IMG/VR virus record: IMGVR_UViG_3300008110_000081
Length of the DNA stretch: 64,000 bases
Origin: an uncultured virus (IMG/VR IMGVR_UViG_3300008110_000081)
Lineage: Duplodnaviria; Heunggongvirae; Uroviricota; Caudoviricetes
Reading direction: 5' to 3' (one strand)
Under the pieces are notes generated by a model. That model saw only the letters and a list, made by a program, of their open reading frames with translations, did no database searches and was not told the DNA's origin. A program made the position numbers and the translations under genes. This document shows, one piece after another, positions 36,780-61,566 of this stretch. Position 1 is the first letter of the stretch, and every line of letters starts with the position of its first letter.

Positions 36780-37355
36780 TTAATCCATATCAAACTCATT
36801 GTAATCAAGCACGTCTGTTTCATGCTTCTTCTCAAAGAATTCTTTTACTGTTCTTTTTTTGTAAAGACTATTAATCATCTGAAAGTTCTCAACTTGTACA
36901 TAACGTTTCCAGTTTTCCGGATAAGTTCTACTAACAAGTCTTGTAAAATCTCTTATACCTTTAAATTGCCACAACTCTCTATCTCTAAACTTATACTTAT
37001 TAGCATAATTGGTATAAAAGATTTTTGCAACATAAGAGTCTGATTCAAAGTTGCGGTGTTGTAAAGCTGTCTTGTATTTGATAGAAGTTGGGTAATCTGT
37101 GTTGTGCTTCCTTGGTGGTTTACAGGTGCCAATAAAGACGTAACCTAAGTTCTCTGGTAATTCAACACCATCTCTATTATCAATGATTTCATTGTACATT
37201 AAAAGAGAATGTGTGTTAATTATCTTTTTTAAGGTACTATTAGGAACAGCGGCATACTCAGGATATTTCTTTTTAAACACTCTGTAGAATTTTTTTGTTA
37301 AGACTGTAAACCTTACCGGTCTAAATCTAGGAGCTGATAAATCTGGTTGTCTCAT
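36780..37355 (-). CDS. HU/IHF-like DNA-binding protein (191 aa)
   Basis: Basic; helix-helix then GVELPENLGYVFIG resembling the HU beta-arm; crAss-like phages carry an IHF-like gene in the tail module. Confidence 0.6.
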   Translation of the reverse strand: MRQPDLSAPRFRPVRFTVLTKKFYRVFKKKYPEYAAVPNSTLKKIINTHSLLMYNEIIDNRDGVELPENLGYVFIGTCKPPRKHNTDYPTSIKYKTALQHRNFESDSYVAKIFYTNYANKYKFRDRELWQFKGIRDFTRLVSRTYPENWKRYVQVENFQMINSLYKKRTVKEFFEKKHETDVLDYNEFDMD

Positions 37356-37384
37356 CTGTTTTTATGTTGTTGGTATACAAGCAC

Positions 37385-37420: not shown

Positions 37421-37428
37421 TTTAAGTG

Positions 37429-37461
37429 TAAAAGCAAATACCCCAGATTACTCTGGGGCAT
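37429..37461 (-). terminator. Rho-independent terminator after the Cys-rich operon
   Basis: Minus strand TGCCCCAGA-GTAA-TCTGGGGTA followed by TTTGCTTTT. Confidence 0.75.
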
Positions 37462-37503
37462 CCACCTGTCAGTCACGTTATACCAACAAACCGTGACATT
37501 ATC
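37429..37503 (-). ncRNA. Candidate 3'UTR-derived antisense sRNA
   Basis: Hairpin GTCACG-GTTTGTTGGTATAA-CGTGAC plus terminator; complementary to leader motifs of six genes in the window (see findings). Expression not shown. Confidence 0.45.
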
Positions 37504-37785
37504 TTATGGTGCCGGTGGGCAAGGTGCATAGGTTACAGTAAAAGGAGCTCTTGCTTCTGTTGATTCTTCAGGTTCACACAATGGTTGTAAGTAACCCTCA
37601 AATTCAATATTGTCACAATCTGGTGGTGTAATACCTGTTGATATTACTACACTACATGCTCCAACAGTAGGTGTACATGTTACTAATGAACATACATATG
37701 GACTTGGTGATCCAACTATGTGCCAACAAAGTCTATACTGTCCTAAAAAGTATGTACTTGTAAAGTTTATTGTTAAGTCAATCAT
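37504..37785 (-). CDS. Small Cys-rich putative virion protein (93 aa)
   Basis: Tightly packed last ORF of the Cys-rich block; beta-rich with several Cys. Confidence 0.65.
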   Translation of the reverse strand: MIDLTINFTSTYFLGQYRLCWHIVGSPSPYVCSLVTCTPTVGACSVVISTGITPPDCDNIEFEGYLQPLCEPEESTEARAPFTVTYAPCPPAP

Positions 37786-42917: not shown

Positions 42918-43088
42918 TTATTTTTTTTGATATAGAACTTTTGTTGCTGTAGGATTTACCACAGGCTTGTTTCCTAAAGAGGCTTCATATGTTCCAATAC
43001 AAGTACTACATACAGCCATTCCGTTACTTGCTGTTCTTCTTTGACAGCCACAGGATAACGCTTTTTTACAATTTGAGCAAGTTGACAT
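42918..43088 (-). CDS. Small Cys-rich protein (56 aa, below ORF-track cut-off)
   Basis: Translated by eye: MSTCSNCKKALSCGCQRRTASNGMAVCSTCIGTYEASLGNKPVVNPTATKVLYQKK; CxxC, CxC, CxxC; fills the gap between neighbours. Confidence 0.75.
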   Translation of the reverse strand: MSTCSNCKKALSCGCQRRTASNGMAVCSTCIGTYEASLGNKPVVNPTATKVLYQKK

Positions 43089-43111
43089 TTTCTTTGTTGG
43101 TTTAAAGATTA

Positions 43112-47062: not shown

Positions 47063-47063
47063 G

Positions 47064-47270: not shown

Positions 47271-47271
47271 G

Positions 47272-47591: not shown

Positions 47592-47593
47592 GA

Positions 47594-47740: not shown

Positions 47741-47744
47741 GATC

Positions 47745-47915: not shown

Positions 47916-47932
47916 GATATTTAGTTTTTAAG

Positions 47933-48946
47933 TTAATTCCAATTCTTTTCTAGTTTCTTGGTAATATCAACTAGAATGTTTTCCTGTAAAGGATTCTTTA
48001 AGAACTCAAGACACTCTGCAGCGTTACGACCCATTTGTGAACTTGAATCAACATGATAGATAAATCCATCAGGTTTTGCAGCTATGATTTTATAGAATGT
48101 TGCATCTTTAACCATGGCTCTAATCTTAAGAGTTTCCATGTCAAGTTCAACAGCATCTAAAAATGTCTGAGCTGCTCTCTTTAAGTTTTTCTCAATACCT
48201 TCACCATTAATATACGCGTCCATGTTAGAATATGTAACATCATGTGGTGTAGTCTTTTTGTACTGTACACTATTACCGTCTACAACTTTAGCAACATAAA
48301 ACAACTTGTTCTGATTCTTGTTAAATAATTTATCAAGTTCAGAGATAGCTCTGTTTTTAAGTTTAATAACTTCAGTCTTAGTGGATATAGTCTCAACGTA
48401 CTTATCAAGGTAAAACTTAGGTGGGACGTTTTTAGTTCTTGCAGCATCGTAACTAGGAGAGATCATTGCAAATCCTCCCGCTTCAATAGCGTATAATTTA
48501 ATCAAGTCATACGGATCTTTAGCAGGATCTAATGGAATGATCTCATTACCACAACGCATTGTGATTTTATTCCAGAACTCGTGGTTATCAGGTTTTAATA
48601 ATTTGATTTCATTCCAGAAATTAGGACTAGCTGGATCAACTACGTTTACAGCCAACTCTCTTTCAAGTTGTGCTACTACATTACGGATCTCTTTAATCTT
48701 AGCTTCACGCGTCTCTTTGTCTGCTATAAGTTTTACCTCAGGGGCAAATTCATTTAAGCCGGTTATGTAACGCATTATACCGTTACGCTCAATACAGGCA
48801 AGTTGTTCTTCATGGAATACCCCATCATAAAGGGCAATGCCATATTTTTCTAATCCTAAATTACTTGAGTTAGGATCAAAGTAGGGTTTAACGGATATAC
48901 GTCCGCTTTTTACATCATAAGGTGTTGAAACAATTGAAATGCTCAT
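47933..48946 (-). CDS. Conserved capsid-module protein downstream of MCP (337 aa)
   Basis: Synteny with the crAss-like gene following MCP; function unknown. Confidence 0.55.
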   Translation of the reverse strand: MSISIVSTPYDVKSGRISVKPYFDPNSSNLGLEKYGIALYDGVFHEEQLACIERNGIMRYITGLNEFAPEVKLIADKETREAKIKEIRNVVAQLERELAVNVVDPASPNFWNEIKLLKPDNHEFWNKITMRCGNEIIPLDPAKDPYDLIKLYAIEAGGFAMISPSYDAARTKNVPPKFYLDKYVETISTKTEVIKLKNRAISELDKLFNKNQNKLFYVAKVVDGNSVQYKKTTPHDVTYSNMDAYINGEGIEKNLKRAAQTFLDAVELDMETLKIRAMVKDATFYKIIAAKPDGFIYHVDSSSQMGRNAAECLEFLKNPLQENILVDITKKLEKNWN

Positions 48947-48993
48947 AATTTTTTTTTTGGTTTTAGTTGGTTGTTATTTGACTGACATTAATT

Positions 48994-49023
48994 AAAAAGA
49001 GGGGAGATTGCTCTCCCCCTTTT
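48994..49023 (-). terminator. Rho-independent terminator after MCP (possibly bidirectional)
   Basis: Minus strand AAAAGGGGGAGA-GCAA-TCTCCCCTCTTTTT; GNRA loop; A/T tracts on both sides. Confidence 0.85.
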
Positions 49024-49030
49024 ATGGTTA

Positions 49031-50656
49031 CTAGAATGATCCTCCAGTGATTGGATTTCTCATTACGATTTTTAATACTTTGGTTGGATCTTTTACCCAG
49101 ATAGCTGGCATAGTCTGAGTCATCATCACACGGTAACCGTTGAATTGACCAGAGCTTTGGAAGCCTTGAGTACGGCCCATGTAATCCATGGTTCCGTTTT
49201 GATACCACCATTTTAATTGATTATCCCAAGATAACTTCAACATGTAAATGTTGTCATTTCCAGTATCAGTGATATCAAAAATGATGAAGCTATAAGATGA
49301 TAACGGGTTACCATCAATGATTGGGTTCTCAATGTCATTTGTATGTAAGTTATCAAACGCTGGGTTTAACACAAATTTCACGTTAGCCAAGAATGGAATA
49401 ACGTAAGAAGTAAATGCAAATCCAAAGTTTAAGTCCATACCTTGACCAGAGATTGCACCAATACCATTGTTGCTAGCAGCTTGGATTACTAAACCAGAGT
49501 TAACAGCTTCACGCTTGATAGCCTCGTTTACTAAACGCATACCGCCCATACCTGTTTGAACAATGATTTGGCGTTTTGGATCTGGACCTTGGAACTCCAC
49601 ACGACCTGCGTAGAAGTTGTAGATCTCACCGCGGAATAACTCTAAGCTAAAGTTAGACTTATTGTACACACGTTTGAAAGAGTTATCTAACTGCTTCCAT
49701 AAACCTACTGATAAACGCATATCATCTGGACCATCTTGCTTAACACGTCCACCATGTCCCCACATTAAGTAGGTCTCGATGTCTGTAGCAATTTTAGTTA
49801 AGTGAGCTGCTTCCATTGTAGTTAAGAAAGTACGTGTTAAAGTACCATTTCCTACAGCGCGCTTCAAGTAATCTTTACCCATTCTTGACGCAATGTCTTC
49901 AATCTTAGTGATTGCTGGATCCATTGTCTTGTCAAAGTTTCTCCAGATCTCAGTTACAGGAACTGTACCATCTGCATTCATTCCTCCTTTGATCATCATG
50001 TCTGCACGAGATGATACTGAATAATGAACGTGAGCTTCTGCACCTCCTACGAAGTTATAGAATTCACGGAAACCTGCACGTGTTTGGATATCAGAGAATC
50101 TCTCACCGTACTCACCACGAGCAGAACCTTTACGGAACACTTTAGTTTGTGGGTTTAAGTATTTGTTGTCCAAAAACTTGTAGTTGTCGTTGTTTACTAA
50201 CTGTACAGTGTAGATAAAACCATCACCCATAGGTAAGATATCATCTGCAGTAATGTACATCTCAACACCGTTGTATTTGTCATAAGTGATGATATCACCA
50301 TGTCCAAATTCACGTCTGTTGATTTTGATTTTGAAGGTTGTACCGTCAATACCTTTGTTCTCATTTTGTGGCTCAATGTCTTCAAGAATATAAGCTAAGT
50401 CCTGAGATACAGGAGTTTGCCATTTATATTCTCCACGCGCATTGTCTACCATGATGATGTTCTTACCACCAAAAGATGATAACTGGTATAAAGGCATTTC
50501 GATTTTTTGGGTCATTGCCCAAATGTCAACTGGACCCATGTCCATTGGTTCAGCATCTTTCAACATATTCACTAAGTGATATGAGTCTACGTGTGAACTA
50601 GCATTGTAGTTAGTGTCACGTAGGAAGAGGCCATTGTTTAAAACTGGAGTGCTCAT
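49031..50656 (-). CDS. Major capsid protein (crAss-like HK97 fold, 541 aa)
   Basis: Order terL-portal-scaffold-MCP; size, EYKWQ, IETYLMWG, SVGLWKQL and VQTGMGG segments; followed by a strong terminator. Confidence 0.85.
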   Translation of the reverse strand: MSTPVLNNGLFLRDTNYNASSHVDSYHLVNMLKDAEPMDMGPVDIWAMTQKIEMPLYQLSSFGGKNIIMVDNARGEYKWQTPVSQDLAYILEDIEPQNENKGIDGTTFKIKINRREFGHGDIITYDKYNGVEMYITADDILPMGDGFIYTVQLVNNDNYKFLDNKYLNPQTKVFRKGSARGEYGERFSDIQTRAGFREFYNFVGGAEAHVHYSVSSRADMMIKGGMNADGTVPVTEIWRNFDKTMDPAITKIEDIASRMGKDYLKRAVGNGTLTRTFLTTMEAAHLTKIATDIETYLMWGHGGRVKQDGPDDMRLSVGLWKQLDNSFKRVYNKSNFSLELFRGEIYNFYAGRVEFQGPDPKRQIIVQTGMGGMRLVNEAIKREAVNSGLVIQAASNNGIGAISGQGMDLNFGFAFTSYVIPFLANVKFVLNPAFDNLHTNDIENPIIDGNPLSSYSFIIFDITDTGNDNIYMLKLSWDNQLKWWYQNGTMDYMGRTQGFQSSGQFNGYRVMMTQTMPAIWVKDPTKVLKIVMRNPITGGSF

Positions 50657-50697
50657 TCTGTTTTGTTTTTGTTTTTAGGGTTTATATTTATTTGTTT

Positions 50698-51939
50698 TTA
50701 ACGTTTAAAAAATCCTCCTGTGTTTCTTGGTATTTTGAAACTACCTCTGCTCTTGTTGTCATCAACTTGCTCATCAATATGGGAAGATATCTTGTTACTT
50801 TGTTCTGATTTTAATTTACGTACTGTCTCAGCAATTACTTCTTTTTTATTATTCTCACGCACCTTAGACTCATACCCTTGTTCATCAGCAAGTAGCCAAA
50901 GTACTTTAGCAATAAGACCATGGTTAGGTTCTACATACTGGTATTTTTCTAATAAGTGACCTAATAAGTTAGTTGGGTTACCGGAGGCAGATTGGTAGCT
51001 TGGCTGAACCAGTCCTGTGAATAATAAGTTTTGCGTTCTTCTGTCTAGCTTAAGACCGTTTAATTCACCAGGCTCTAATGTTTTATAAACATTATCCATA
51101 TAATGTTTCATTTGAGCTTGTTGTTGTTTTTGCATTTCAGCTTGTTGAGCAAGTTTATATTGAACTTGTCTCTCTGTCATTGCATCCAACTTAGGCTTAA
51201 ACTTAGAAGCTTTGTTCTCTAATTGATTTGCATCTTCCCATTCAGTAATCTGCTCTTCAATTTCATCTGGTGTACCAAAGTTAGTTGCTTGTAAATAACT
51301 TCTTGAGATATGCTTAGCATCATTTTCATCAGCTGGATCCATCTGACGTACTTCCTCAACTTGAGCAAGTGTTCTGAATAAACCTTTTAAATCTGTACCA
51401 CCTTTGGATACATATTCTGCAGCGTATTGAAACTCTGGAGGAAGCGCCTCAAAAAACTGATTTGAGATACGACCGCCCAACTCTTCTTCCTTGTGATTAA
51501 AGTTAGCTTCAATTAACTCTTCAAAATCTTGCAGAGTGTATTTGTCTAAAGGTTTCTCATCATCAAAAGGAACTAGCAAGTTCTTCTCAATAAGTTTGCT
51601 AGTTAATTCTACTAGACCATTTTTACGTCCTGTAGATTTTGAAGGTCCTGCTGTTGAATCATCATCAGTATCTTCATTCAACATTTGATCTAATTCTGAC
51701 TTAGACACTGGCGCTGGCGCAGGTGTTGTTGCAGGATCTGCTGATGTTGTTGTCTCAGGTTCTGATTTTGTTACTGGTTTATCTAAGAAAGATAAATCTT
51801 CTTTGCCGCGGGAAAAAATGTTTTTCTTTTCAGGCTCATCCGTAGCTGCAGGTAACATAACGCTATCCCCGATATTGAGTATCTGGTTTAGGTCCATGTC
51901 TACCGTCTCTACGGTTGTGTTGTCTGTTGTGTTGCTCAT
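50698..51939 (-). CDS. Acidic scaffold-like protein between portal and MCP (413 aa)
   Basis: Acidic disordered N-terminus and coiled-coil C-terminus; conserved crAss position. Confidence 0.65.
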   Translation of the reverse strand: MSNTTDNTTVETVDMDLNQILNIGDSVMLPAATDEPEKKNIFSRGKEDLSFLDKPVTKSEPETTTSADPATTPAPAPVSKSELDQMLNEDTDDDSTAGPSKSTGRKNGLVELTSKLIEKNLLVPFDDEKPLDKYTLQDFEELIEANFNHKEEELGGRISNQFFEALPPEFQYAAEYVSKGGTDLKGLFRTLAQVEEVRQMDPADENDAKHISRSYLQATNFGTPDEIEEQITEWEDANQLENKASKFKPKLDAMTERQVQYKLAQQAEMQKQQQAQMKHYMDNVYKTLEPGELNGLKLDRRTQNLLFTGLVQPSYQSASGNPTNLLGHLLEKYQYVEPNHGLIAKVLWLLADEQGYESKVRENNKKEVIAETVRKLKSEQSNKISSHIDEQVDDNKSRGSFKIPRNTGGFFKR

Positions 51940-51984
51940 CTTTTTATTTTTTGTTGGTTATTTTTGACTGACGGTCATATACTT

Positions 51985-52012
51985 AATATAACAAAATTAT
52001 ACAAATAAACTT
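51985..52012 (-). promoter_or_regulatory. Putative promoter for scaffold-MCP (AAGTTTA..TTTGTTATATT)
   Basis: Variant of the motif in the portal-scaffold gap. Confidence 0.45.
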
Positions 52013-52069
52013 TATAAATTTGACTTTTTTTTCAGGTCTATAAAGTTTTTCTGCATTATAACGCTAGTT

Positions 52070-54853
52070 TTACTTTTTCTTGTTGTTTTTGCTATTTTCC
52101 TGAGCCTTCTTTTTTAGGTCAAACTGGTTCTTATTCTCTTTTGCTATGTTAACATCCATCTGCTTCATGGCTAATTGAGTTTGCATTTTCTCTCTAGAGA
52201 TATTATTTTTATCTGCATTTAAAGATTGTTTAGTTCTCTCTTTACCTTGTTCAAAGTTCATAGTTTGTTCAAACTCATTTGAGCTCTTGATATCCTTCAT
52301 AGCATCAATAAAATCAGACTGCTTGTTAGCATTCATATCTTGCATAGCTCCATAACCTGCAGACTTAATTTCAGCAGCAAGCAATGTGGTTCTGTTACGC
52401 ATTTCTTCTTTACGCATATCGGCATCAATCTCCATTTGTTTTTGTTGCAATGCTGTTTGATTAGCTTGTTCAGCCATTTGCTGTTCATGCTGCATTTGTT
52501 CCTGACGTTGAGCTTGAGCTTTTCTATCAGTTTCTTTTAATACATGATTAACCTCAGCTAAGGATTCAGCCTGCATAACATTACCTAGGTCAAAGATTGT
52601 TGCTCCTGTAGTATTGTTGCCAATAACCATTTGTTTCATCTGTTCAAGTATTGCTCTCTGGTTGGCCTTTGTTGTACAGAAGATATTAAGATCTCTCAGT
52701 AATAAGTCAGTACCGTTCATCTCAAAGTTAACTTTCTCATCAGTGCTTGTGATATACTGCAAGCGTAATGATGGTTTTGAGGAATGATAAAACTGCGCTA
52801 AGTCAGTTCTCATCTGATGTACGCGTGGCATCAAATAATCACAGTGTTGCATGAAGTAAGTTTCCGTCTGGGCGTACGAACCGGTTACAGCCTGTTCAAT
52901 ACCTTTAGCGGTCTCTGTTTGACCTATTTGCTGACCCAGACGTTGAGGTGTGATACCTATCACCTCAAAACATTGTTGTTTAAAATAATTAGCCATTTGA
53001 ATCCTGGACATCATACGATTTGTTTGCTCAAGATTTAATGTCTGGAAGTGTTGGAAGTTAAGTGCATTTTCAGTGTTAGTGATGGATGTATCCAACGGTA
53101 ACATCTGGAAGTTCTTCATTGCAACATAGGCTTTGGCCAAGTTGTTCTTACCCCAGTCTTCATTCATAGAATGTCTTGGCAAAGCATTCTGATCTAACAG
53201 AATCACAGTACCTAATTCATCTACTAAGATATCAGCTATCTGGTTATTAACAATGTTGTATCCAATTTGGAAAGGCTTCATTAAGTCAACCATTGCTGTT
53301 GATCTAGTATTACGATCAGAGAATACAGCTCCTTCTACAGGAAGTTTACAGCCATACAAAGTTTTATCTCCTTTGAACTGAAACTTTAATGGTCTAATTG
53401 TGTTGCTATCAATACCTAAGTACATTGGATTAATACCACCTGGGTTATTCATACCCCAGAAGGAAGGATGATTAGGGCCAATTTTAATACCGCCCCATAC
53501 TTCATTAATCCAGATCCAATCAATGTGTTCTCCAAAGACAAGATTATCTTTAGTTTTGTTTTGCATTAACCGTGTATTGTACACAGGCTTATCAACTATT
53601 TTGTAACTTTCATCAATGATGTCTACAATGGTCTCTCCGTTTTCAGTAATCTTAGTAAGATGTCCTACCTTACGTTGAGACTTCCAGTAAGCTGTTGTAA
53701 CACGGAGCAAAAAGGCAGCTCCCATCGGAGCATAGTCTTCTCCTTCAGCCATGATCCAGTTGATAATGTCTCCTCCGGGAGCAATAGAATTATCCCACAT
53801 TGAAGTGTATTGACGGTAAGCTAAACCAGGCATATTAACGTTCCAATCATGATTTTTTGTAGCATCATAGTAAGAACCATCATTCTGATATCCTTGTAAT
53901 GGATAACCTGCAGATCTTACTGGATAAATTGCTTCAATAGATTCTAGTTGTTCTTGGGTCATCATGTAACCGTACTTGTCAATTACATCAGAGATAGTCA
54001 TCATATCAATACGGCCAACCCAGTTACCTTGAGAAATGTACCTTGCTTCTGGTGACTTGTGATAAAAAGTAGTTACTGGATTCCAAAGCTCAACATCATA
54101 ATCATCTTCCATCATGCGCATGTGCCAGAACTCTCTATCGGTAATAAGCATATCTCTAAAAGCTCTTTCCTCAAGTTCATCCATTCTAAATCTTTCCTCA
54201 TCAACTTTCATCTGATGAGCAGCCCATTGCTCACACATGCTCCTGTAATCTTTATCAAAGTAATTTTGTATCTCAGGAAGAGTCTTAAGATTTTCAGGAT
54301 TCATTTGTTGTTGCATTTGCTCTTGCATTTGTGGATCATTCATATCCATTCCTTGTTCAAGCATCTGAGCTAATAACTTTTGCTCAGCTTTTGCAAATAA
54401 AACATCTTCTACTTGTTTACGTTTTTCTTCTAGCTGCTCATTATAAGTAAACTCATCAACCCCGCGGAAGGTTGCCTTAGTATTTCTTTTAGCAAACTCA
54501 GATACAAGCACGTTAACCACATTAGGAATAATAGGATAAAACTTAAGTTCTAAAGCTGTAGTATCTTCTTGGATAAGAGTTTCAACTAAGTCTCTCATCT
54601 CATTGTCATCTTCAACAATGTAATCAGCTTTGTCAATAACTCCTTTAGCAAGCTTATAGTTTTTCATAAGCCGGCGCGCATTACGGCGGATCTGTTTTAA
54701 ACCATTCCACTCTAACCAGTCAAGATTCCAGGCTGTCCATTCAGCATCTTTCTCATCACGTGGAAGAAATTGAACAGGCTGTGTGATACTACCCATACGG
54801 TTAGTTTCAGATTTGGCACCAGCCTTAAGTTGCATTGCGTTTAATACTTTCAT
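52070..54853 (-). CDS. Portal protein (927 aa)
   Basis: Directly after terL; FYPIIPNVVNVLVSE, MVDLMKPFQIGYNI, GITPQRLGQ; long Gln-rich C-terminal coiled-coil. Confidence 0.88.
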   Translation of the reverse strand: MKVLNAMQLKAGAKSETNRMGSITQPVQFLPRDEKDAEWTAWNLDWLEWNGLKQIRRNARRLMKNYKLAKGVIDKADYIVEDDNEMRDLVETLIQEDTTALELKFYPIIPNVVNVLVSEFAKRNTKATFRGVDEFTYNEQLEEKRKQVEDVLFAKAEQKLLAQMLEQGMDMNDPQMQEQMQQQMNPENLKTLPEIQNYFDKDYRSMCEQWAAHQMKVDEERFRMDELEERAFRDMLITDREFWHMRMMEDDYDVELWNPVTTFYHKSPEARYISQGNWVGRIDMMTISDVIDKYGYMMTQEQLESIEAIYPVRSAGYPLQGYQNDGSYYDATKNHDWNVNMPGLAYRQYTSMWDNSIAPGGDIINWIMAEGEDYAPMGAAFLLRVTTAYWKSQRKVGHLTKITENGETIVDIIDESYKIVDKPVYNTRLMQNKTKDNLVFGEHIDWIWINEVWGGIKIGPNHPSFWGMNNPGGINPMYLGIDSNTIRPLKFQFKGDKTLYGCKLPVEGAVFSDRNTRSTAMVDLMKPFQIGYNIVNNQIADILVDELGTVILLDQNALPRHSMNEDWGKNNLAKAYVAMKNFQMLPLDTSITNTENALNFQHFQTLNLEQTNRMMSRIQMANYFKQQCFEVIGITPQRLGQQIGQTETAKGIEQAVTGSYAQTETYFMQHCDYLMPRVHQMRTDLAQFYHSSKPSLRLQYITSTDEKVNFEMNGTDLLLRDLNIFCTTKANQRAILEQMKQMVIGNNTTGATIFDLGNVMQAESLAEVNHVLKETDRKAQAQRQEQMQHEQQMAEQANQTALQQKQMEIDADMRKEEMRNRTTLLAAEIKSAGYGAMQDMNANKQSDFIDAMKDIKSSNEFEQTMNFEQGKERTKQSLNADKNNISREKMQTQLAMKQMDVNIAKENKNQFDLKKKAQENSKNNKKK

Positions 54854-54857
54854 AATC

Positions 54858-57065
54858 TTATCTTATATTTTTAAAAGGATTTCTTGGTGCTTGCATGCGA
54901 CCAGGATTTCCTCTACCTTTTCCAATATGCCGGAAAGGGCTGTTACTTAATTTAAACAAATTTGCTGACTTTTCCAAGTGTTTTCTGTCAGTATTTTCAA
55001 CTCTTTTTTTATAACCCCTATTTGCTTGCTGAACTTTAGCAAAAGCAATCAGTGCTCCTAGTGCTACCAGCCTATCCACGTTTATGTCTGAGTTATAAGC
55101 TTGCATCTCTTTCATGGCCATTGGATCAGGAATACGCTCAATGCCATAATATGTTTTTACAATAGTACCATCATCTTTAGTGTCAACATCTAATTCTTCT
55201 TTGAGAAACTCAATAAGATAACTTAAGATGTGATTCTTAAACAATGTTCCTGTATTCTTCCAACCATATTCTTGAAACACGTTCCGGTTTGAGGACAACT
55301 CTTTCAAGAAAAAGATCTGATCTTTAGGTACAAGATAGCGCTGTTTGTGCTTACTTATCATGTACTGTATAAACAAAGATACGTTATTTTCTATTAAAGT
55401 CCACGAGTTATACCACTCAATTATTAAAGCAAGTCTTTCATGAGTTTTATTGATGTCATCAAAACGTCCGCACCATGCAGCAACAATCTTATCTCTCTCA
55501 ATATAAGTCTCTGTTTTATCAGCATCAATCTTAGTTACTTCTACAGGATTCTTATAAACGTAAATAGAACATAAAGATTCTGAGGTAGTTGTTTTACCTT
55601 CTGACACTGGGTCAATAGAAGCGTAGTAAGTTCCCCACTCTGCATTAGGATCAGGTCTTTCCCACACAACTAATGTTCCTGTTTTGTCTTCAGTGTTTTT
55701 AGTTATTGGGAATTCAGATATAGGAAGCTTGGTTGTTAGATGAGGTTCTATTTTACCTGAGGCATCACGTTCAAGATTTATAAACTCGTAAGCATAATCT
55801 TTTTCTTCAATACGGCGAGTTTGTGCAGCTACTAAGTTTTGCGGGAATAGTGATACACTCCTGTAAGCAAATGCTTCAGCAATATTACGCGGATGCTGAG
55901 ATATACGCAATTGGTATTTTTCTGGTGTAAGATCTTTCTTCCACTTTTCAAATTTAGCATTTAAAGATTCTAAGGCTTCTTCAACAAGTGAGTTACCATA
56001 CTTATCAATATATGGAGGCATTGACCATTGTTCAGGAATAAACAAAGCTGATTCTCCTATAGTGCCTTTATCATCAATTAAGTTACTAGTGACAGGGTAG
56101 ATACTATTCACAACGGGATATATTGTCATTTGCTTCAGTGGCTCACACTGATCTAAATCACCTACTGTTCCTGCTGCAATAAAGATACCTGTTGTAATAT
56201 TACCTGATTGTAATGCTGGAAATAAGTACTCAACAGTCTTGTCCATATGTGGTGCAACACCGGCTTCTTCATAGAAGAAAATACGTACAGCACCACCGAC
56301 ACCTGAGGTATCACTCTTTTCAAAACTCACACCTTGTATTGTACCTTTTAAACCTTTTAATGTTGATCTACCATCTGAACCGGTATCTTCAATTTGTTGT
56401 TGCCACATTAAAACTTTACTAGGATTCATAGGACGGTACCAAGCAGTCTTATCATCTAAGAATGACTTATACTCAGTTAAGAACTTCCATGAACCTTTAT
56501 CATTAATGTAATCTTTTAATGAAGCACCTATCTTAAGGATTGGTGTTTCCTCAAACCAAATCTGATTAATCATTTTGGCCATATGGTAATAGGAGGAACC
56601 AAACTGCCTTTTCTTTAATACGGCCGCGTGCATCCAATGTAATTCTGCCAACAACTCATATAGAGCCATGTGATACTGACTATCCCAGATATCTGGAAAA
56701 TCAAATTTCTTTTTTACTTTATCATTGATTGGTAGGAAATTGACCCACATGTAATACTCACGTGGTAAATACCAAGTGTCATTCTTACCTTTAAAAATAA
56801 CACCGTTACGGCATTTGTTTTTCTGATCATTCCAATAAGCTAAGAAATCTTTACTGCCCTCAGGATAAGGACAAAAATAACGTAGCTTGTTAAATTTTCT
56901 TGCTTGAGTATTAAACTCAAAAGCCGTTTCATCAAAATTGTACTGACCAGGTTCTTTAAATAAAGATAAAACAAAATCTTTAAACTCATCCCGTGTATTA
57001 AACGTGGTTGTGGACCATTCATCATTTTCCCAAGTAGGAACTACTATGTATGGTTTATCATCCAT
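54858..57065 (-). CDS. terL: Terminase large subunit (735 aa)
   Basis: Walker A-like VLKKRQFGSS, Walker B FFYEEAG, coupling motif GTVG, RNase H-like YYASIDPV and C-terminal NVDRLVA. Confidence 0.92.
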   Translation of the reverse strand: MDDKPYIVVPTWENDEWSTTTFNTRDEFKDFVLSLFKEPGQYNFDETAFEFNTQARKFNKLRYFCPYPEGSKDFLAYWNDQKNKCRNGVIFKGKNDTWYLPREYYMWVNFLPINDKVKKKFDFPDIWDSQYHMALYELLAELHWMHAAVLKKRQFGSSYYHMAKMINQIWFEETPILKIGASLKDYINDKGSWKFLTEYKSFLDDKTAWYRPMNPSKVLMWQQQIEDTGSDGRSTLKGLKGTIQGVSFEKSDTSGVGGAVRIFFYEEAGVAPHMDKTVEYLFPALQSGNITTGIFIAAGTVGDLDQCEPLKQMTIYPVVNSIYPVTSNLIDDKGTIGESALFIPEQWSMPPYIDKYGNSLVEEALESLNAKFEKWKKDLTPEKYQLRISQHPRNIAEAFAYRSVSLFPQNLVAAQTRRIEEKDYAYEFINLERDASGKIEPHLTTKLPISEFPITKNTEDKTGTLVVWERPDPNAEWGTYYASIDPVSEGKTTTSESLCSIYVYKNPVEVTKIDADKTETYIERDKIVAAWCGRFDDINKTHERLALIIEWYNSWTLIENNVSLFIQYMISKHKQRYLVPKDQIFFLKELSSNRNVFQEYGWKNTGTLFKNHILSYLIEFLKEELDVDTKDDGTIVKTYYGIERIPDPMAMKEMQAYNSDINVDRLVALGALIAFAKVQQANRGYKKRVENTDRKHLEKSANLFKLSNSPFRHIGKGRGNPGRMQAPRNPFKNIR

Positions 57066-57270
57066 TCTTTAAAAGCTTTTTGATCTTTGCTTCATCTCCA
57101 CCAGTCTTCTGAATAATATCCACTAGTGTATTATGATTTTTTGAAGTTAGCACATTTTGTAATTCTCCATTGAAGTATTTGCTAATATCTTCTCTTTTAA
57201 AAGCGGTCCAGCTTTTAACATAATGGTTGTAGTGAAACAACCAGTCATACAATTCATCTTTATTGGTCAT
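57058..57270 (-). CDS. Small hypothetical protein (70 aa)
   Basis: Overlaps both neighbours in the operon. Confidence 0.65.
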   Translation of the reverse strand: MTNKDELYDWLFHYNHYVKSWTAFKREDISKYFNGELQNVLTSKNHNTLVDIIQKTGGDEAKIKKLLKNG

Positions 57271-57784
57271 AAGCTAATTTTTTATTTCCGCGTGTACGGC
57301 CTTTTAATTCTTCAAGTTCTTGTAAAGCAACCTTTTCAAGTTGTTTAAATTCCATGATTGTTTTACCAACTGATTTTACTTGTGACTGTAAAGCCCCTAT
57401 ATTACCATCTCTCCCTGTAGTAACTTCAGCAGTTCTTACAAAGCTACCTAATCTTTCCATCAAACGCTTATTGTCTAGATAATAACGGTATGTAGGAGTT
57501 ACTGTTAAAGAATCAAGTTTAGTCATAGCAGCTATCATAACCTCATCTTCTAAAGTGTATTCACCAGGAAAGTCTCCCAGTATAATATCTTCTTTAGCAT
57601 CTTCTTCTATATTAGCATATGCACTTTCAGGATCAAATTTATAAAATAAAAAGTTAAATGCTGGAATAGGATTCTCATAAGCATCATGTACAGCTTTAAG
57701 TTCCGGTATTGATAAACAATTATGATTTATAACCACTTGTCCATTCACTATATCAAAAAATTTTAATGTCATGTCTTTCTCCAT
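57260..57784 (-). CDS. Hypothetical protein upstream of terL (174 aa; terminase small subunit candidate)
   Basis: Helical, basic C-terminus, near terL; function inferred from position only. Confidence 0.5.
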   Translation of the reverse strand: MEKDMTLKFFDIVNGQVVINHNCLSIPELKAVHDAYENPIPAFNFLFYKFDPESAYANIEEDAKEDIILGDFPGEYTLEDEVMIAAMTKLDSLTVTPTYRYYLDNKRLMERLGSFVRTAEVTTGRDGNIGALQSQVKSVGKTIMEFKQLEKVALQELEELKGRTRGNKKLAYDQ

Positions 57785-57963
57785 TTAAAGTGAATACCAA
57801 TGCATAAAATGCAGATAGTCATATCTACATAATGATCCATTGGAAATGAGACACCCAAGCACAACCCTGGGTAAATCTGAAAATCTATTTTAATTCTTTT
57901 TTTCTTGTTCATTTTTACATTGTTACAAAATAACTCTCTGTGTTCATAAGGATCATTGCTCAT
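57769..57963 (-). CDS. Small hypothetical protein (64 aa)
   Basis: ATGA overlap with upstream gene. Confidence 0.5.
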   Translation of the reverse strand: MSNDPYEHRELFCNNVKMNKKKRIKIDFQIYPGLCLGVSFPMDHYVDMTICILCIGIHFKWRKT

Positions 57964-58778
57964 TTTTTCTGTTCTTGAATATAGTTTATCATGTTAATAA
58001 TCTCTCTTTTTAAATAAGGTGTTTCATAAGGCACAACTGTTTTTACAACAGGTTCATTATTAGCATCCTTGCGCAGTATGGGATTACCAAATTTGTCTTC
58101 ACCATCCTTTTCAAAAATTACATGGTGTAACATCATCTTACCTGGTTTGTAATTAGGATTATGTTTTAAGATCATGTACATATAAGCACTTAACTGTAAA
58201 GCATAATGATTAAAGTTGCAATCATCTAAATGAGCGCATGGACCCGTCATCTTCTTAGAGATGCCTTCCCAGCTCTTAAAGGATTCTTTTTTAATCTCTT
58301 TATTTGTTTTATAATCAATTATGTCCACAGTATCTTTTACTACTTCAACTCTATCTGACTGACCACATAGACCTACTGATTTCAAATATACAAAATGTTC
58401 TGGATAAATCCCCTCTGTAAGTTTTTGAGACGGTGAATGTTTTACACCATTATCATAAATAGGTTTGATAATAGGTATTGCTACACCTTGTCTCTGAATT
58501 GTATCAATGCTAAGTAAATCTGATTCACGTTGATCATGATAAAATGTACCTGCTGATAAAGCTCTGTCTGTTTCATTTGACCAGTGAGCTTGTATTTCCT
58601 CAGGAGGAATACCATACCACTTAGACTTTTTATTCTTAGAAGATTTGATTGACTGCGCTACCGGATCAAACTTCTGTTTAAACTGTCCAACAAATGTTGT
58701 GACACTCAACCATGTTATACGGTCATTAGGATCTAAGCTCTCATACTTATGATCCTCTGCTTTAAATGTTACTGCCAT
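57960..58778 (-). CDS. PD-(D/E)xK nuclease (272 aa)
   Basis: LSVTT, GTFYH, PE..GLCGQSDRV..IIDYKT, HYALQLSAY. Confidence 0.85.
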   Translation of the reverse strand: MAVTFKAEDHKYESLDPNDRITWLSVTTFVGQFKQKFDPVAQSIKSSKNKKSKWYGIPPEEIQAHWSNETDRALSAGTFYHDQRESDLLSIDTIQRQGVAIPIIKPIYDNGVKHSPSQKLTEGIYPEHFVYLKSVGLCGQSDRVEVVKDTVDIIDYKTNKEIKKESFKSWEGISKKMTGPCAHLDDCNFNHYALQLSAYMYMILKHNPNYKPGKMMLHHVIFEKDGEDKFGNPILRKDANNEPVVKTVVPYETPYLKREIINMINYIQEQKK

Positions 58779-59304
58779 TATGAGTTATTGTTTGATTGGG
58801 TTGATCTTTTAAAACATGATTATAATACCATTTGTGAGAAAGTTCTTCATCTTGATTTGTTGGTTTATACTCTAATTTTTCTTTATCTTCTTCAGTTAAT
58901 TTTATATAAAGACTGTGAAATACATCTCTACCTCTTTCTTCATCAATCTTTTTTAGAGCTGGATCCATAAGTCTTTCCATTCTTATTTCATCTTTTTCTT
59001 CCTCTGTTCTTTTTAAAGCATTAGCAGGCTTAATATGATAAGGAAGCTCTCCTGTTTTATCTAGCTCATCTATAACATTTTTCATGTGTTCTTCTGCAAA
59101 TACATTTATTTGAGCATCTTTAAGAAAAGTAGACGTTTCCTTTTCAACTTTTTCAATACTTGCTCTATTTGGTGGCAAGCCGGTCATCTCACTAATTATT
59201 CTTGCTCCTTTACAAGTTGGACAAGGCCAAGTTGATCTAGGCAATTCTAATACAAAAGGATCATCTCCTGTACCATTACATATTGGACATTTTTGAAAAC
59301 TCAT
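58762..59304 (-). CDS. Protein with N-terminal DnaJ-type zinc finger (180 aa)
   Basis: CPICNGTG..CPTCKGAR. Confidence 0.65.
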   Translation of the reverse strand: MSFQKCPICNGTGDDPFVLELPRSTWPCPTCKGARIISEMTGLPPNRASIEKVEKETSTFLKDAQINVFAEEHMKNVIDELDKTGELPYHIKPANALKRTEEEKDEIRMERLMDPALKKIDEERGRDVFHSLYIKLTEEDKEKLEYKPTNQDEELSHKWYYNHVLKDQPNQTITHNGSNI

Positions 59305-59306
59305 GA

Positions 59307-59654
59307 TTAATCTTTTTTAGTTGGTGAATAAGGATCATACTTTATTGAATCATAGATTCTGTCTTGTTCTTCTTCTGATAATACAGCTCTCCACTTGGGC
59401 CCATTAGGATGTGCACATTCTGCAGCAAGTGATCTTACTTTAAATGCTAAGCAACATCCACAAGCTGAACAACAAGGCGCTGTTCCTGGTACCATACAGC
59501 TATCACCTTTATTATCAAAAAGGCCGCAGTCTTCACAGATAGCCAATCTTCTTGTAGCTTCTTCTTCAATCATTTTCTTGTATATCATTCTGTTCCAAAA
59601 GCCCTCCCATATCTGAGCTCTGTTCTCCCATATCTTTTTGAGTTTTTTCCACAT
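59307..59654 (-). CDS. Cys-rich metal-binding protein, DUF6171-like (115 aa)
   Basis: RLAICEDC..CCSACGCCLAFKVR..ECAHP..KW. Confidence 0.6.
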   Translation of the reverse strand: MWKKLKKIWENRAQIWEGFWNRMIYKKMIEEEATRRLAICEDCGLFDNKGDSCMVPGTAPCCSACGCCLAFKVRSLAAECAHPNGPKWRAVLSEEEQDRIYDSIKYDPYSPTKKD

Positions 59655-60039
59655 AGCGTTTATGTTTTATTTGTTTTTGTTTTTCACTTTCTTGATTTAT
59701 TTTTACTTGTAGTTCATTGAGTATGTTTAATCTTTGCTCTGTCTCTTTGAGTATTGTAAATTTCTGAAAAGACGCAGTCTCTGGGTCATCTGTAAGAGTT
59801 TTATATTTGTTGTGAATTCTCTCATACTTGGCTATTGTGTCAGGTAATCTCCAGGGTTTAGCTTTAAATGTACCAAGACCTTCTAGTATAATATTAGGAC
59901 TAAGACCTTTAAGCATGGCTTGCTTCACATCTTTCCAGTAGTATTCTATAAGCTCTGCTACAAATTTCTCAGTTATGTTAAGCTCATTAGCAACGGGAGC
60001 ATATAAATCTTTAGGCTTCTTGGGGTTCAACGTACACAA
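59566..60039 (-). CDS. HU/IHF-like DNA-binding protein (about 157 aa)
   Basis: DLYAPVANELNITEKFVAELIEYYW..NIILEGLGTFKAK fits the HU fold. Confidence 0.65.
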   Translation of the reverse strand: MCTLNPKKPKDLYAPVANELNITEKFVAELIEYYWKDVKQAMLKGLSPNIILEGLGTFKAKPWRLPDTIAKYERIHNKYKTLTDDPETASFQKFTILKETEQRLNILNELQVKINQESEKQKQIKHKRYVEKTQKDMGEQSSDMGGLLEQNDIQEND

Positions 60040-60433
60040 TTTTATAGTTTAACAATACAGAACCATTTATCTGAATCTTTAAATCTGGATTAAGACTTAT
60101 CTTCTTACGTCCTTTACCAGCTTTTACAAGAAGCTTATCTTTCTCAACTTTAATAAGGACATTCCTTATTGTTTGTGGAGAAGGGTCTGGTTTTCTCTCA
60201 TTAGGTCTAGAAGGCTTCCAAGTCTTTAATTTTTCTTCAAGTCTCTTCTCTGCCATTATTGAACAAAATTCTGTGAGTTCTGATTCACCCATTTTACCAA
60301 GACTTATTAAGCAATCAAGATCAAGCTCACTCAAGGCTATATGGTTAATATAGCAGTGAGTGATCAATTGATATCTAATTATGTCATCCAAATCCATTCT
60401 GACTTGTTTGTTGACAACGTTTACTTTTGCCAT
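60011..60433 (-). CDS. Putative winged-helix DNA-binding protein (140 aa)
   Basis: LSELDLDCLISL..SPQTIRNVLIKVEKDKLLVK..KKISLNP. Confidence 0.55.
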   Translation of the reverse strand: MAKVNVVNKQVRMDLDDIIRYQLITHCYINHIALSELDLDCLISLGKMGESELTEFCSIMAEKRLEEKLKTWKPSRPNERKPDPSPQTIRNVLIKVEKDKLLVKAGKGRKKISLNPDLKIQINGSVLLNYKIVYVEPQEA

Positions 60434-60450
60434 GTTGGTATACTGACAGT

Positions 60451-60741
60451 TTAAACTTTAAGCTTACGCTCTTTCTTTTCAGTTTTGTCCACATCTAAAT
60501 CTGAACCATCCTCAGATTCTTCTGGTGGAGGTGTCATCATTTGAGCAATTCTGATATTCATACTAATTCTACGAGCTCTTGCTTCTTCAATATCAGCTAG
60601 GTATTTCTCATACTCAGCTTGAATTTTTACTAAAGGTAGTTGCTCCTTGTAATACGCCTGCATGTTAGTGCGCATTTGTTTGATTTCTTCTGGGGTAGGC
60701 TCACGCAGGTCTTGCGGATCCATGTTGGTTGTTTCTGACAT
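60451..60741 (-). CDS. Small coiled-coil protein (96 aa; true start may be 60723)
   Basis: ORF in operon; the leader motif GTCAG..ACCAAC directly precedes the second ATG. Confidence 0.65.
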   Translation of the reverse strand: MSETTNMDPQDLREPTPEEIKQMRTNMQAYYKEQLPLVKIQAEYEKYLADIEEARARRISMNIRIAQMMTPPPEESEDGSDLDVDKTEKKERKLKV

Positions 60742-60803
60742 AATAAACTTTTTAAATATTAAACTTATACAAATATAATATAAAAAGTTTAAACTTACAA
60801 AAT

Positions 60804-61352: not shown

Positions 61353-61566
61353 CTGTGAAAAAGTTAGTTAAGAATTTACCAGCTATACCTACTACCAAAG
61401 CTGCTCCTATAAACATCTTCAGTTCTTTAGGAGTGTAGATATCTTTTAACTGATCATAGGCTAGGATACCACCACCACCTATTAGGCCGGCACATGCTAA
61501 TAAAGCATCACCTAGTTTTCTCCATTTCTTAGGAGTGGGCTTGTAGTAATTTTTTAAGGTCTTCAT
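61336..61566 (-). CDS. Holin-like membrane protein (76 aa, 2 TM)
   Basis: Basic N-terminus, two hydrophobic helices, lysis-cassette context. Confidence 0.55.
   Translation of the reverse strand: MKTLKNYYKPTPKKWRKLGDALLACAGLIGGGGILAYDQLKDIYTPKELKMFIGAALVVGIAGKFLTNFFTDEKPE

What the first reader, a model, noticed from the sequence alone, without database searches (positions are those of the whole stretch)
48966..60740. Bipartite GTCAG(TCA)-N-ACCAAC motif in translation-initiation regions
Seen at 48966-48986, 51952-51972, 60433-60447 and 60723-60740 (minus strand), with half-sites at 37368-37377 and 43095-43101. It is not Shine-Dalgarno-like and its spacing varies, which suits an RNA-level element better than a DNA operator. 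The marked genes (scaffold, post-MCP gene, wHTH, HU-like, small coiled-coil) look mostly non-virion or assembly related, while the MCP, portal and muzzle leaders lack it. It also suggests 60723 rather than 60741 as a start codon.
Basis: partly seen in the sequence, partly recalled or inferred. Interest (0 to 1): 0.7.

Follow-up and report, generated by a model that had tools for sequence, protein, structure and literature searches.

The report
Phage antisense RNA matching gene leaders
The two-part motif in front of a few phage genes is real, and it is the exact mirror image of a small conserved RNA hairpin that the same phage carries behind its tail genes, so the hairpin RNA probably pairs with these messages to control their translation.

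Summary
GTCAG-N(1-14)-ACCAAC occurs 5 times in the window against 0.29 expected.

- **ACCAAC half:** it is gene-specific across 80 related crAss-like phage loci. It precedes the 413-aa pre-MCP gene in 37/40 leaders, the 337-aa post-MCP gene in 23/23 and a 56-aa Cys-rich gene in 32/34. It is absent from MCP (0/63), portal (0/60) and terminase (0/45) leaders. It usually ends 3-6 nt before the ATG, and its reverse complement is absent from start regions.
- **Fifth hit:** the plus-strand hit at 37468-37487 means the coding strand carries the anti-motif. It sits in the loop and 3' arm of a hairpin followed by a terminator, in the 3' UTR of gene 37504..37785.
- **Hairpin conservation:** 31 copies, 24 distinct, with 93% of cells paired and compensatory changes at 5 of 6 pairs. 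No Rfam family matches.
- **GTCAG half:** it is confined to the sub-clade whose hairpin carries the complementary UGACUGAC.

Best reading: a 3'-UTR-borne phage antisense RNA that pairs with these start regions, probably to repress translation. No transcript was seen. The proposed start at 60723 is not supported.

The parts
37472..37497 (-). Hairpin 1 of the candidate antisense RNA. The stem is 37492-37497 paired with 37472-37477 (GUCACG/CGUGAC). The 14-nt loop is 37478-37491 (GUUUGUUGGUAUAA). GUUGGU at 37482-37487 is the complement of ACCAAC.
   Evidence: Sequence. MFE and centroid fold (z -4.49). Covariance model hit of 49.2 bits. Covariation counts.
37468..37475 (-). UGACUGAC, made of the 3' arm of the stem plus the linker. 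It is the exact complement of the leader half-site GUCAGUCA.
   Evidence: Plus-strand pattern hit at 37468-37487. Duplex predictions. Clade correlation.
37424..37467 (-). Second, G+C-rich hairpin (CCCCAGA/UCUGGGG core) with a U-rich tail. It is a presumed intrinsic terminator that ends the tail-gene transcript and the candidate RNA.
   Evidence: Folds. An equivalent hairpin plus T-run follows hairpin 1 in all 13 relatives folded. The simple terminator scan did not list it.
51953..51972 (-). Target site GUCAGUCAAAAAUAACCAAC in the leader of the 413-aa gene 50698..51939, which lies between portal and MCP.
   Evidence: Predicted duplex of -25.4 to -27.8 kcal/mol. ACCAAC present in 37/40 orthologous leaders.
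48966..48986 (-). Target site GUCAGUCAAAUAACAACCAAC in the leader of the 337-aa post-MCP gene 47933..48946. It lies directly behind the MCP terminator.
   Evidence: Predicted duplex of -22.0 to -25.5 kcal/mol. ACCAAC present in 23/23 orthologous leaders.
60434..60447 (-). Target site GUCAGUAUACCAAC abutting the ATG of the 140-aa gene 60011..60433.
   Evidence: Predicted duplex of -24.0 kcal/mol. ACCAAC present in only 6/31 orthologous leaders.
60724..60739 (-). Site GUCAGAAACAACCAAC inside codons 1-6 of the 96-aa gene 60451..60741.
   Evidence: Orthologues carry ACCAAC at +0..+25 in 19/24 cases. N-termini aligned. Predicted duplex of only -16.3 kcal/mol.
43093..43103 (-). Half-site AAACCAACAAA ending 7 nt (ACCAAC core) before the ATG of the 56-aa Cys-rich ORF 42918..43088.
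   Evidence: ACCAAC present in 32/34 orthologous leaders, within a stop-to-start spacer of about 24 nt.
37367..37377 (-). Half-site UAUACCAACAA in the leader of the 191-aa gene 36780..37355. It has 11 contiguous complementary bases to the hairpin loop.
   Evidence: The duplex appears. It is not conserved in the orthologue leaders seen.

Best explanation
The motif is the target box of a phage-encoded antisense RNA.

**The RNA.** The transcript of the tail-gene block ends, behind gene 37504..37785, in a module of hairpin, short A/C-rich linker and terminator (window 37424-37497, minus strand). The hairpin loop exposes GUUUGUUGGU.

**The targets.** The loop is complementary to (A)AACCAACAAA in the start regions of a small regulon:
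- the 413-aa pre-MCP gene;
- the 337-aa post-MCP gene;
- the 56-aa Cys-rich gene;
- the 96-aa gene, where the box lies in its first codons;
- in some lineages the 140-aa gene and others.

**The second half.** In the window's own sub-clade, pairing can extend from the loop into the 3' arm and linker (UGACUGAC), which is the complement of the leader half-site GUCAGUCA. This explains a bipartite motif with a variable spacer: two helices separated by an internal loop.

**Likely effect.** The leaders are A/C-rich and unstructured, the host evidently does not use Shine-Dalgarno sequences, and the box lies within the ribosome footprint. Pairing therefore most likely blocks 30S binding and represses translation. 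That would couple the output of head-assembly genes to transcription of the tail operon.

**Shown:** motif statistics, gene-specific conservation, hairpin structure with covariation, complementarity, and lineage-specific co-variation.

**Inferred:** that the hairpin RNA accumulates, whether processed or as an mRNA 3' end; that it pairs in vivo; and the sign of the effect.
For: **1. The motif is real and sits at start regions.**
- 5 matches against 0.29 expected.
- In 1188 unique leaders of the window plus 80 related loci, ACCAAC occurs 195 times in -30..-1. Every non-overlapping permutation of the same composition occurs 15 times or fewer.
- 116 of the 214 copies in -60..-1 end 3-6 nt before the ATG.
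- GTTGGT is absent from every bin between -30 and +30 in 1196 start regions.

**2. The motif is gene-specific and conserved** while flanking bases and proteins diverge: 37/40, 23/23 and 32/34 in three gene families, against 0/63, 0/60 and 0/45 for MCP, portal and terminase, and 3/364 for unmatched ORFs.

**3. The anti-motif lies in a conserved structured element.**
- The only intergenic coding-strand GTTGGT in the window is in this hairpin.
- One such hairpin plus terminator was found in 12 of 12 related records that are at least 60% complete and come from MCP relatives, L082 or L342.
- Covariance-model hits occurred in 20 of 46 further records. Most records without a hit are fragments 12-30% complete.
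- In 31 copies (24 distinct), 93% of cells are paired against 25-34% when the partner columns are slid. Five of 6 pairs show changes on both sides, and 0 of 500 shuffles reach the observed score.
- RNAalifold finds the same helix independently.
- The loop core TGTTGG is invariant.

**4. Predicted pairing picks out the marked genes.**
- Window: three start regions at -22 kcal/mol or lower, against a mean of 0.15 (maximum 2) for 150 shuffled RNAs. No shuffle reaches the observed third-best energy.
- G002: four such start regions against a mean of 0.19, and 0 of 80 shuffles.
- The top hits are the 337-, 413- and 140-aa genes.

**5. The RNA and its targets change together.**
- Each genome's own RNA pairs better with its own leaders than with other genomes' leaders: -15.11 against -13.98 kcal/mol, 0 of 2000 permutations.
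- The signal comes from five or six diverged lineages, each with its own second pairing block.
- GTCAG..ACCAAC leaders occur in 3/4 and 2/3 leaders of two genomes whose RNA carries CUGAC, and at three start sites of a third such genome, G060. They occur in 0 of 82 leaders of the 23 genomes whose RNA lacks CUGAC.
Against: - No transcript, 5' end or processing site has been observed. The RNA-library contigs that hold parts of this phage are too short to show ends, and the stretch I laid did not include the hairpin.
- The hairpin was found by searching for the reverse complement of the motif, so its complementarity is partly by construction. Only its structure, synteny, single-copy status and covariation are independent of that search.
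- The own-versus-cross signal disappears in the 20 main-clade genomes, whose RNAs barely vary (p = 0.21). Relatedness also inflates permutation tests.
- One genome (G008/L068) has CUGAC in the RNA but no GTCAG in either of its 2 leaders.
- In main-clade genomes the A-U-rich 9-11 bp loop match gives duplex energies that do not stand out from in-gene controls.
- Single shuffled RNAs can reach comparable best energies, with a lowest value of -30.1 kcal/mol.
- The simple terminator scan did not call the second hairpin.
- The direction of regulation, repression or activation, is not addressed by any result.
Confidence: 0.7

Rival explanations
1. ACCAAC is the operator of a sequence-specific RNA-binding protein, a translational repressor or activator in the manner of T4 RegA. 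On this reading the complementary hairpin is unrelated, or at most a decoy.
For: The motif is gene-specific, anchored to the start codon and strand-specific. These are also the properties expected of a protein operator. Several motif-bearing genes encode small proteins of unknown function that could be autoregulators, for example the 56-aa Cys-rich protein.
Against: - A protein would recognise the same sequence at each site, not its complement.
- It does not explain an invariant complementary loop in a covarying hairpin.
- It does not explain the lineage-specific second blocks that match each genome's own hairpin.
- No RNA-binding domain was detected in the window proteins scanned.
Confidence: 0.1
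2. ACCAAC is an intrinsic translation enhancer read by the ribosome or protein bS1 of a host that lacks Shine-Dalgarno sequences. It would be an A/C-rich unstructured leader for highly expressed genes, and the hairpin match would be coincidental.
For: Leaders are 44-52% A and 8-10% G, and SD-like 4-mers are rare at 2/31, 7/89, 1/91 and 2/82 genes. The spacing of 3-6 nt to the ATG resembles that of a ribosome-binding signal.
Against: - It is absent from the MCP leaders (0/63), although MCP is presumably the most highly expressed gene, and from almost all other genes.
- Same-composition permutations are not enriched.
- In the window's clade the box lies 13-19 nt from the ATG.
- In the 96-aa gene the box lies inside the coding region.
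- It leaves the conserved anti-motif loop unexplained.
Confidence: 0.08
3. The motif is a double-stranded DNA operator for a phage transcription factor, and the plus-strand copy at 37468-37487 is simply a fifth site in the other orientation.
For: The plus-strand copy exists. It lies roughly 60-90 bp upstream of a promoter-like box for gene 36780..37355.
Against: - There are about 200 copies in start regions, all in one orientation, against 0 reverse copies.
- The distance to the promoter-like box varies while the distance to the ATG is fixed.
- The motif is present in a spacer of about 24 nt with no room for a promoter and inside codons.
- The single reverse copy sits in a hairpin whose stem keeps pairing through G-U pairs (UG 9 and GU 6 of 24 distinct rows at two pairs). 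That is meaningful in RNA and not in duplex DNA.
Confidence: 0.05
4. GTCAG(TCA)...ACCAAC marks a transcription start or a late-promoter element.
For: In the 413-aa gene leader, GTCAG begins about 12 nt after the TATATT box.
Against: - The same module follows a terminator directly, with no promoter box, in front of the 337-aa gene.
- ACCAAC is anchored to the ATG rather than to the box.
- A separate conserved promoter-like box, AAGTTTA..TTTGTATATT, already lies upstream.
Confidence: 0.03

Closest known systems
3'-UTR-derived base-pairing small RNAs of bacteria, in particular the autoregulatory OppZ and CarZ of Vibrio cholerae (Hoyos et al. 2020, PMC7398697; abstract and outline read)
   Same: - The element lies at the 3' end of an operon and shares its terminator.
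- A short exposed seed is complementary to translation-start regions.
- One predicted target, the 56-aa gene, lies upstream on the same strand with no strong terminator called in between. Feedback on its own transcript is therefore possible.
   Different: - It is encoded by a virulent-type crAss-like phage and aimed at the phage's own head and assembly genes.
- The seed sits in a hairpin loop, with a second block in the stem arm and linker.
- Processing by RNase E and dependence on Hfq are unknown. That Bacteroidota generally lack Hfq is my recollection and was not tested here.
- No expression data exist.
c4 antisense repressor RNA of phages P1 and P7 (recalled from general knowledge; Rfam RF01695 as named in an earlier scan note)
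   Same: It is a phage-made trans-acting antisense RNA that pairs through two separate short blocks with a target mRNA, covers the ribosome-binding region and blocks translation.
   Different: - There is no sequence or structure match. The Rfam scan of 36500-38500 returned only two chance-level hits to other families.
- c4 controls a single immunity operon of temperate phages. This element has 4-8 dispersed targets among virion-module genes.
Phage T4 RegA translational repressor regulon (PMC3014915 seen only in a search listing; mechanism recalled)
   Same: A phage-encoded factor acts on the translation-start regions of a defined subset of phage messages.
   Different: RegA is a protein that recognises loosely defined A/U-rich sites. 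Here the recognising partner appears to be an RNA with exact complementarity.
Known phage-derived sRNAs reviewed in PMC12197685 (passages read): OOP, sar, aQ, VpdS, PreS, 24B_1 and others
   Same: They are small regulatory RNAs encoded by phages that act through base pairing.
   Different: - Those described in the passages I read are mostly from temperate phages. They are cis-antisense or aimed at host genes or lysis-lysogeny switches.
- The review text has 0 occurrences of 'Bacteroid'.
- No trans-acting RNA aimed at a regulon of structural or assembly genes appears in the passages shown.

Membership tests
3'-UTR-derived base-pairing sRNA | Lies in the 3' UTR of a protein-coding transcript and ends at that transcript's intrinsic terminator | tested here: met
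   The hairpin starts 7 nt after the stop codon of 37504..37785, on the coding strand. A G+C-rich hairpin with a U-rich tail follows it. The arrangement is the same in 13 of 13 relatives folded.
3'-UTR-derived base-pairing sRNA | Accumulates as a discrete small RNA, through processing or its own promoter | not testable with these tools
   Only short contigs of RNA libraries were available, and the laid stretch (42000-61500) did not include the element. No conserved promoter box was seen upstream.
3'-UTR-derived base-pairing sRNA | An exposed conserved seed is complementary to target mRNAs, typically at the start region | tested here: met
   The loop core is invariant in 31 copies. Complementarity to the leader boxes runs to 9-11 nt, and duplex energies exceed shuffled controls.
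3'-UTR-derived base-pairing sRNA | Changes target translation or stability | not testable with these tools
   This needs reporter or infection experiments.
P1/P7 c4 antisense RNA family (Rfam) | Match to the family's covariance model | tested here: not met
   The Rfam 15 scan of window 36500-38500 at E up to 1 returned only ARRPOF (E 0.058) and GlsR20 (E 0.41). Both are far below their gathering scores.
Shine-Dalgarno-type general ribosome-binding site | Present upstream of most genes of the genome | tested here: not met
   ACCAAC occurs in 161 of 1188 unique leaders, concentrated in 3-5 gene families. It is absent from MCP (0/63), portal (0/60) and terminase (0/45) leaders.
Shine-Dalgarno-type general ribosome-binding site | Complementary to the 3' tail of the host's 16S rRNA | not testable with these tools
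   The host is unknown. No whole genome is held for the window.
Promoter element | Fixed distance to the other promoter boxes or the transcription start, and dispensable where no promoter exists | tested here: not met
   The distance to the TATATT box varies from about 12 to 26 nt, while the distance to the ATG is 2-5 nt. The motif is also present directly behind a terminator and in a spacer of about 24 nt.

The most novel reading that the evidence does not exclude
The hairpin is released from the 3' end of the tail-gene transcript and acts in trans as the master translational regulator of a head-assembly regulon. It would be an RNA counterpart of protein repressors such as T4 RegA. It would be conserved across hundreds of environmental crAss-like phages whose hosts lack Shine-Dalgarno recognition. 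It would evolve by co-variation of a two-block interaction: loop kissing followed by invasion of its own stem.
Probability: 0.45. Interest if true: 0.8.

Novelty: new variant of a known kind. Interest (0 to 1): 0.65.

Why it matters
Gene regulation in crAss-like phages after transcription is essentially uncharted. Their presumed Bacteroidota-type hosts start translation without Shine-Dalgarno pairing, so how individual messages are tuned is an open question.

A conserved phage RNA with a defined seed and a small, conserved set of targets would give a directly testable mechanism, through compensatory mutations in reporters. It would also provide a marker for annotating start codons and regulons in thousands of uncultured phage genomes, and an example of a virulent-type phage using a trans-acting RNA on its own structural module.

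My searches of the held literature found no description of it. They used crAss-like with promoter or late genes, ACCAAC with translation initiation, Bacteroidetes with Shine-Dalgarno and phage, crAss-like with small RNA, and phage-encoded sRNA. Subscription journals are not covered. Earlier notes of this same scan describe the same hairpin in other genomes, so within the scan it is a repeat sighting.

Tried and rejected
- **RNA evidence.** Four RNA-library runs hold short contigs matching parts of window 42000-61500. Their contigs at 99% identity or better number 20, 31, 11 and 3. Contigs cannot show ends, strand or level, and the laid stretch did not include 37400-37500. I draw no conclusion on expression, and none on habitat.
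- **Whole genome.** None is held for the window. The nearest record, G001, lacks the 35000-40000 region altogether. Its lack of hairpin and motif hits is therefore uninformative.
- **Collection scan with the loop pattern.** By my reading of the printed contexts they are almost all from unrelated viruses and coding sequence. I abandoned this route for record-by-record searches.
- **Sliding-window duplex scan.** I replaced it with scoring of start regions against in-gene and shuffled controls.
- **Function of the marked genes.** PHROGs, Pfam and the Atlas gave no family.
- **Megablast against cultured phages.** No match. By protein, the best MCP hit is Leptolyngbya phage Lbo-JY46 at 27.9% identity, followed by Cellulophaga phages and gut crAss-like phages. 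The host cannot be inferred from this.
- **Pairing of ACCAAC with 16S rRNA.** Considered from recalled E. coli and Bacteroidota 3'-end sequences. Dropped because the host is unknown, the recalled complementary stretch is not free, and the motif is gene-specific.
- **Resemblance to the 3' end of initiator tRNA.** 'fMet-ACCAAC-5'' appears in PMC4611024. That sequence is written 3' to 5', so this is a coincidence.
- **Loop-linker pseudoknot (UUGUU with AACAA).** Considered unlikely, because only 1-2 nt connect the stem to the linker.
- **crAss001 paper (PMC8375218, passages read).** It deals with host invertible promoters, not phage leaders.


Full report
**What is in the window.** All long ORFs lie on the minus strand. 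PHROGs identifies the major capsid protein (MCP; 49031..50656), the portal (52070..54853) and the large terminase (54858..57065). By protein the MCP is only 23-28% identical to cultured phages: Leptolyngbya phage Lbo-JY46, Cellulophaga phages and gut crAss-like phages. The window is therefore a divergent, uncultured crAss-like phage of unknown host. Its leaders are A-rich and G-poor (49% A, 9% G). Only 2 of 31 genes of at least 100 aa have an SD-like 4-mer in their leader.

**The observation.**
- GTCAG-N1-14-ACCAAC occurs 5 times against 0.29 expected, and 0 of 100 shuffles reach 5.
- ACCAAC alone occurs 49 times against 26.4.
- GTCAGTCA occurs 6 times against 1.75.
- Seven of the 27 coding-strand ACCAAC copies lie at gene starts, against 1.1 expected by length. 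The reverse complement occurs in no start region.
- One half-site precedes a 56-aa Cys-rich ORF (42918..43088) that a 60-aa ORF list misses.

**Conservation.**
- The MCP has 606 confirmed relatives in IMG/VR. I used the best 80 loci, with MCP identity of 84-97%.
- In 1188 unique leaders, ACCAAC occurs 195 times in -30..-1. Apart from the overlapping CCAACA (173), no permutation of the same composition exceeds 15. A third of all coding-strand copies (195 of 586) fall in these 30-nt stretches. Of the 214 copies in -60..-1, 116 end 3-6 nt before the ATG.
- The motif is gene-specific. Among N-terminally aligned unique leaders it is present in 37/40 for the 413-aa gene between portal and MCP, 23/23 for the 337-aa post-MCP gene, 32/34 for the 56-aa gene and 6/31 for the 140-aa gene. 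It is present in 0/63 for MCP, 0/60 for portal, 0/45 for terminase and 3/364 for unmatched ORFs.
- With a wider window (-36..+25), the 96-aa gene carries the motif in its first codons in 19/24 relatives, and the terminase does so in 15/58. GTTGGT is absent from every bin between -30 and +30.
- In the 413-aa family a separate conserved promoter-like box (AAGTTTA..TTTGTATATT) lies upstream at a variable distance. In the 56-aa family the box sits in a stop-to-start spacer of about 24 nt. In the 337-aa family it follows a terminator directly.
- The ACCAAC box is therefore a message-level element anchored to the start codon. It is not a promoter and not a general ribosome-binding site.
- The GTCAG half is found only in the nearest relatives: L001, L002, L004/5, L007, L008 and L011.

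**The fifth hit.**
- The plus-strand match at 37468-37487 means that the coding strand reads GUUGGUAUAACGUGACUGAC. This is the exact complement of both halves, and it lies 7 nt behind the stop codon of gene 37504..37785.
- It folds as a 6-bp hairpin (GUCACG/CGUGAC) with the loop GUUUGUUGGUAUAA, then UGAC, then a G+C-rich hairpin with a U-rich tail. The energy is -31.6 kcal/mol, with z = -4.49 against shuffles.
- It is the only intergenic coding-strand GTTGGT in the window.

**The hairpin in relatives.**
- The same module, at a similar distance downstream of the MCP gene (about 13 kb in the window, about 15 kb in G008), is present in every related record that is complete enough to contain it. 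These are G002-G012 and G060, 12 of 12 at 60% completeness or more.
- A covariance model built from 13 copies found it in 20 of 46 further records. Most records without a hit are fragments 12-30% complete. Three more distant records of at least 60% completeness (G001, G038, G045) have none, and G001 lacks the whole region.
- In 31 aligned copies (24 distinct), 93% of cells are paired against 25-34% when the partner columns are slid. Five of 6 pairs show changes on both sides, and 0 of 500 shuffles reach the observed score.
- RNAalifold predicts the same helix.
- The loop core TGTTGG never varies.
- Rfam has no matching family.

**Pairing.**
- In the main clade the loop UUUGUUGGUUU is the complement of the leader consensus AAACCAACAAA.
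- In the window, the start regions with the best predicted duplexes are those of the 337-aa (-25.5), 413-aa (-25.4) and 140-aa (-24.0 kcal/mol) genes. In-gene controls average -11.35 with sd 2.9 and a minimum of -22.8 among about 1500.
- Against shuffled RNAs, three start regions reach -22 or lower where a mean of 0.15 is expected, and 0 of 150 shuffles match the third-best energy. In G002 four start regions do so against a mean of 0.19, with 0 of 80 shuffles.
- Caveats: a single shuffled RNA can reach -30.1, and in main-clade genomes the A-U-rich match does not stand out energetically.

**Co-variation.**
- Across 26 genomes with both parts known, each RNA pairs better with its own 91 leaders than when RNAs are permuted among genomes: -15.11 against -13.98 kcal/mol, 0 of 2000 permutations.
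- The signal remains when the window and G002 are left out. It disappears (p = 0.21) among the 20 genomes whose RNAs barely differ.
- The diverged lineages each have their own second block. The window and G002 pair GUCAGUCA with UGACUGAC. L017 pairs GUCAAUUACA and GUUAAUCAUA with UGUGAUUGAC. L024 pairs AGCUAAACCAAC with GUUGGUUUAGCU.
- GTCAG..ACCAAC leaders occur in 3/4 (window) and 2/3 (G002) leaders, and at three start sites of a third genome, G060, whose RNA is of the same type. They occur in 0 of 82 leaders of the 23 genomes whose RNA lacks CUGAC.
- One genome, G008, has CUGAC but 0 of 2 such leaders.

**Mechanism.**
- The simplest account is a 3'-UTR-borne antisense RNA. Its loop nucleates on the ACCAAC box. 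In this sub-clade, pairing then extends into its own 3' stem arm and linker across an internal loop.
- The box lies within the region a 30S subunit covers, and the leaders are otherwise unstructured. Repression of initiation is therefore the likeliest outcome, but nothing here measures it.
- No strong terminator was called on the coding strand between the 56-aa gene and the hairpin. One target may therefore share a transcript with the RNA, as in OppZ and CarZ.

Orthologues of the 96-aa gene begin MSE.. (L011, L073, L055) at the ATG equivalent to 60741 and have no Met at the second position. In most relatives the box is encoded by codons 2-5, MENQQ. The start at 60741 stands.

**Earlier notes of this scan.** After reaching this reading I found seven earlier notes that describe the same anti-leader hairpin in other genomes. 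They agree with my reading but are not independent evidence.

Noticed in passing
window 51980-52010, 37385-37410, 39895-39925, 26850-26880 and 60745-60790 (minus strand); L001-L080 upstream of the 413-aa gene: A conserved promoter-like box, AAGTTTA-N(5-14)-TTTGTATATT, precedes several genes and is strongly conserved upstream of the 413-aa gene in relatives. It partly resembles the Bacteroidota -7 element TAnnTTTG, which I recall rather than tested.
   Followed up: partly
window 42918-43088 (minus): A 56-aa Cys-rich ORF (CxxC..CxC..CxxC) is missed at a 60-aa threshold. It is conserved in 34 unique relatives and carries the ACCAAC box. It could be a zinc-ribbon protein. Its function is unknown.
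   Followed up: partly
window 37468-37471 and alignment A4 columns 37-45: The linker between hairpin and terminator is conserved as YRACAAG. Its AACAA could pair with the loop UUGUU, but the 1-2 nt connector makes a pseudoknot unlikely. In some lineages the linker forms part of the second pairing block.
   Followed up: partly
window 49000-49019: A strong hairpin directly behind the MCP gene is called as terminator-like on both strands. Relatives carry an equivalent hairpin at the same place.
   Followed up: no
relatives of window 54858..57065 (terminase): In 15 of 58 unique terminase start regions, ACCAAC lies within the first 25 nt of the coding region. The window's own terminase lacks it.
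   Followed up: no
G060:C1:80-95 and 128481-128496: The same GTCAGAAACAACCAAC site occurs at both ends of a 128.6-kb record rated 100% complete. This suggests a terminal repeat or a circularly permuted assembly.
   Followed up: no
window 3-12539 (minus): An ORF of more than 4179 aa runs off the window end and is followed by ORFs of 1816 and 996 aa. I did not examine them.
   Followed up: no
G039-G044 (L296-L299, L301): A more distant phage group, whose 191-aa protein is about 40% identical, has weak model hits (E 4e-4 to 9e-3) to a hairpin with the loop GGUUUUGUUGGUUUCC. In G039 only 2 start regions carry ACCAAC, which is no enrichment (2 against 2.3 expected).
   Followed up: partly
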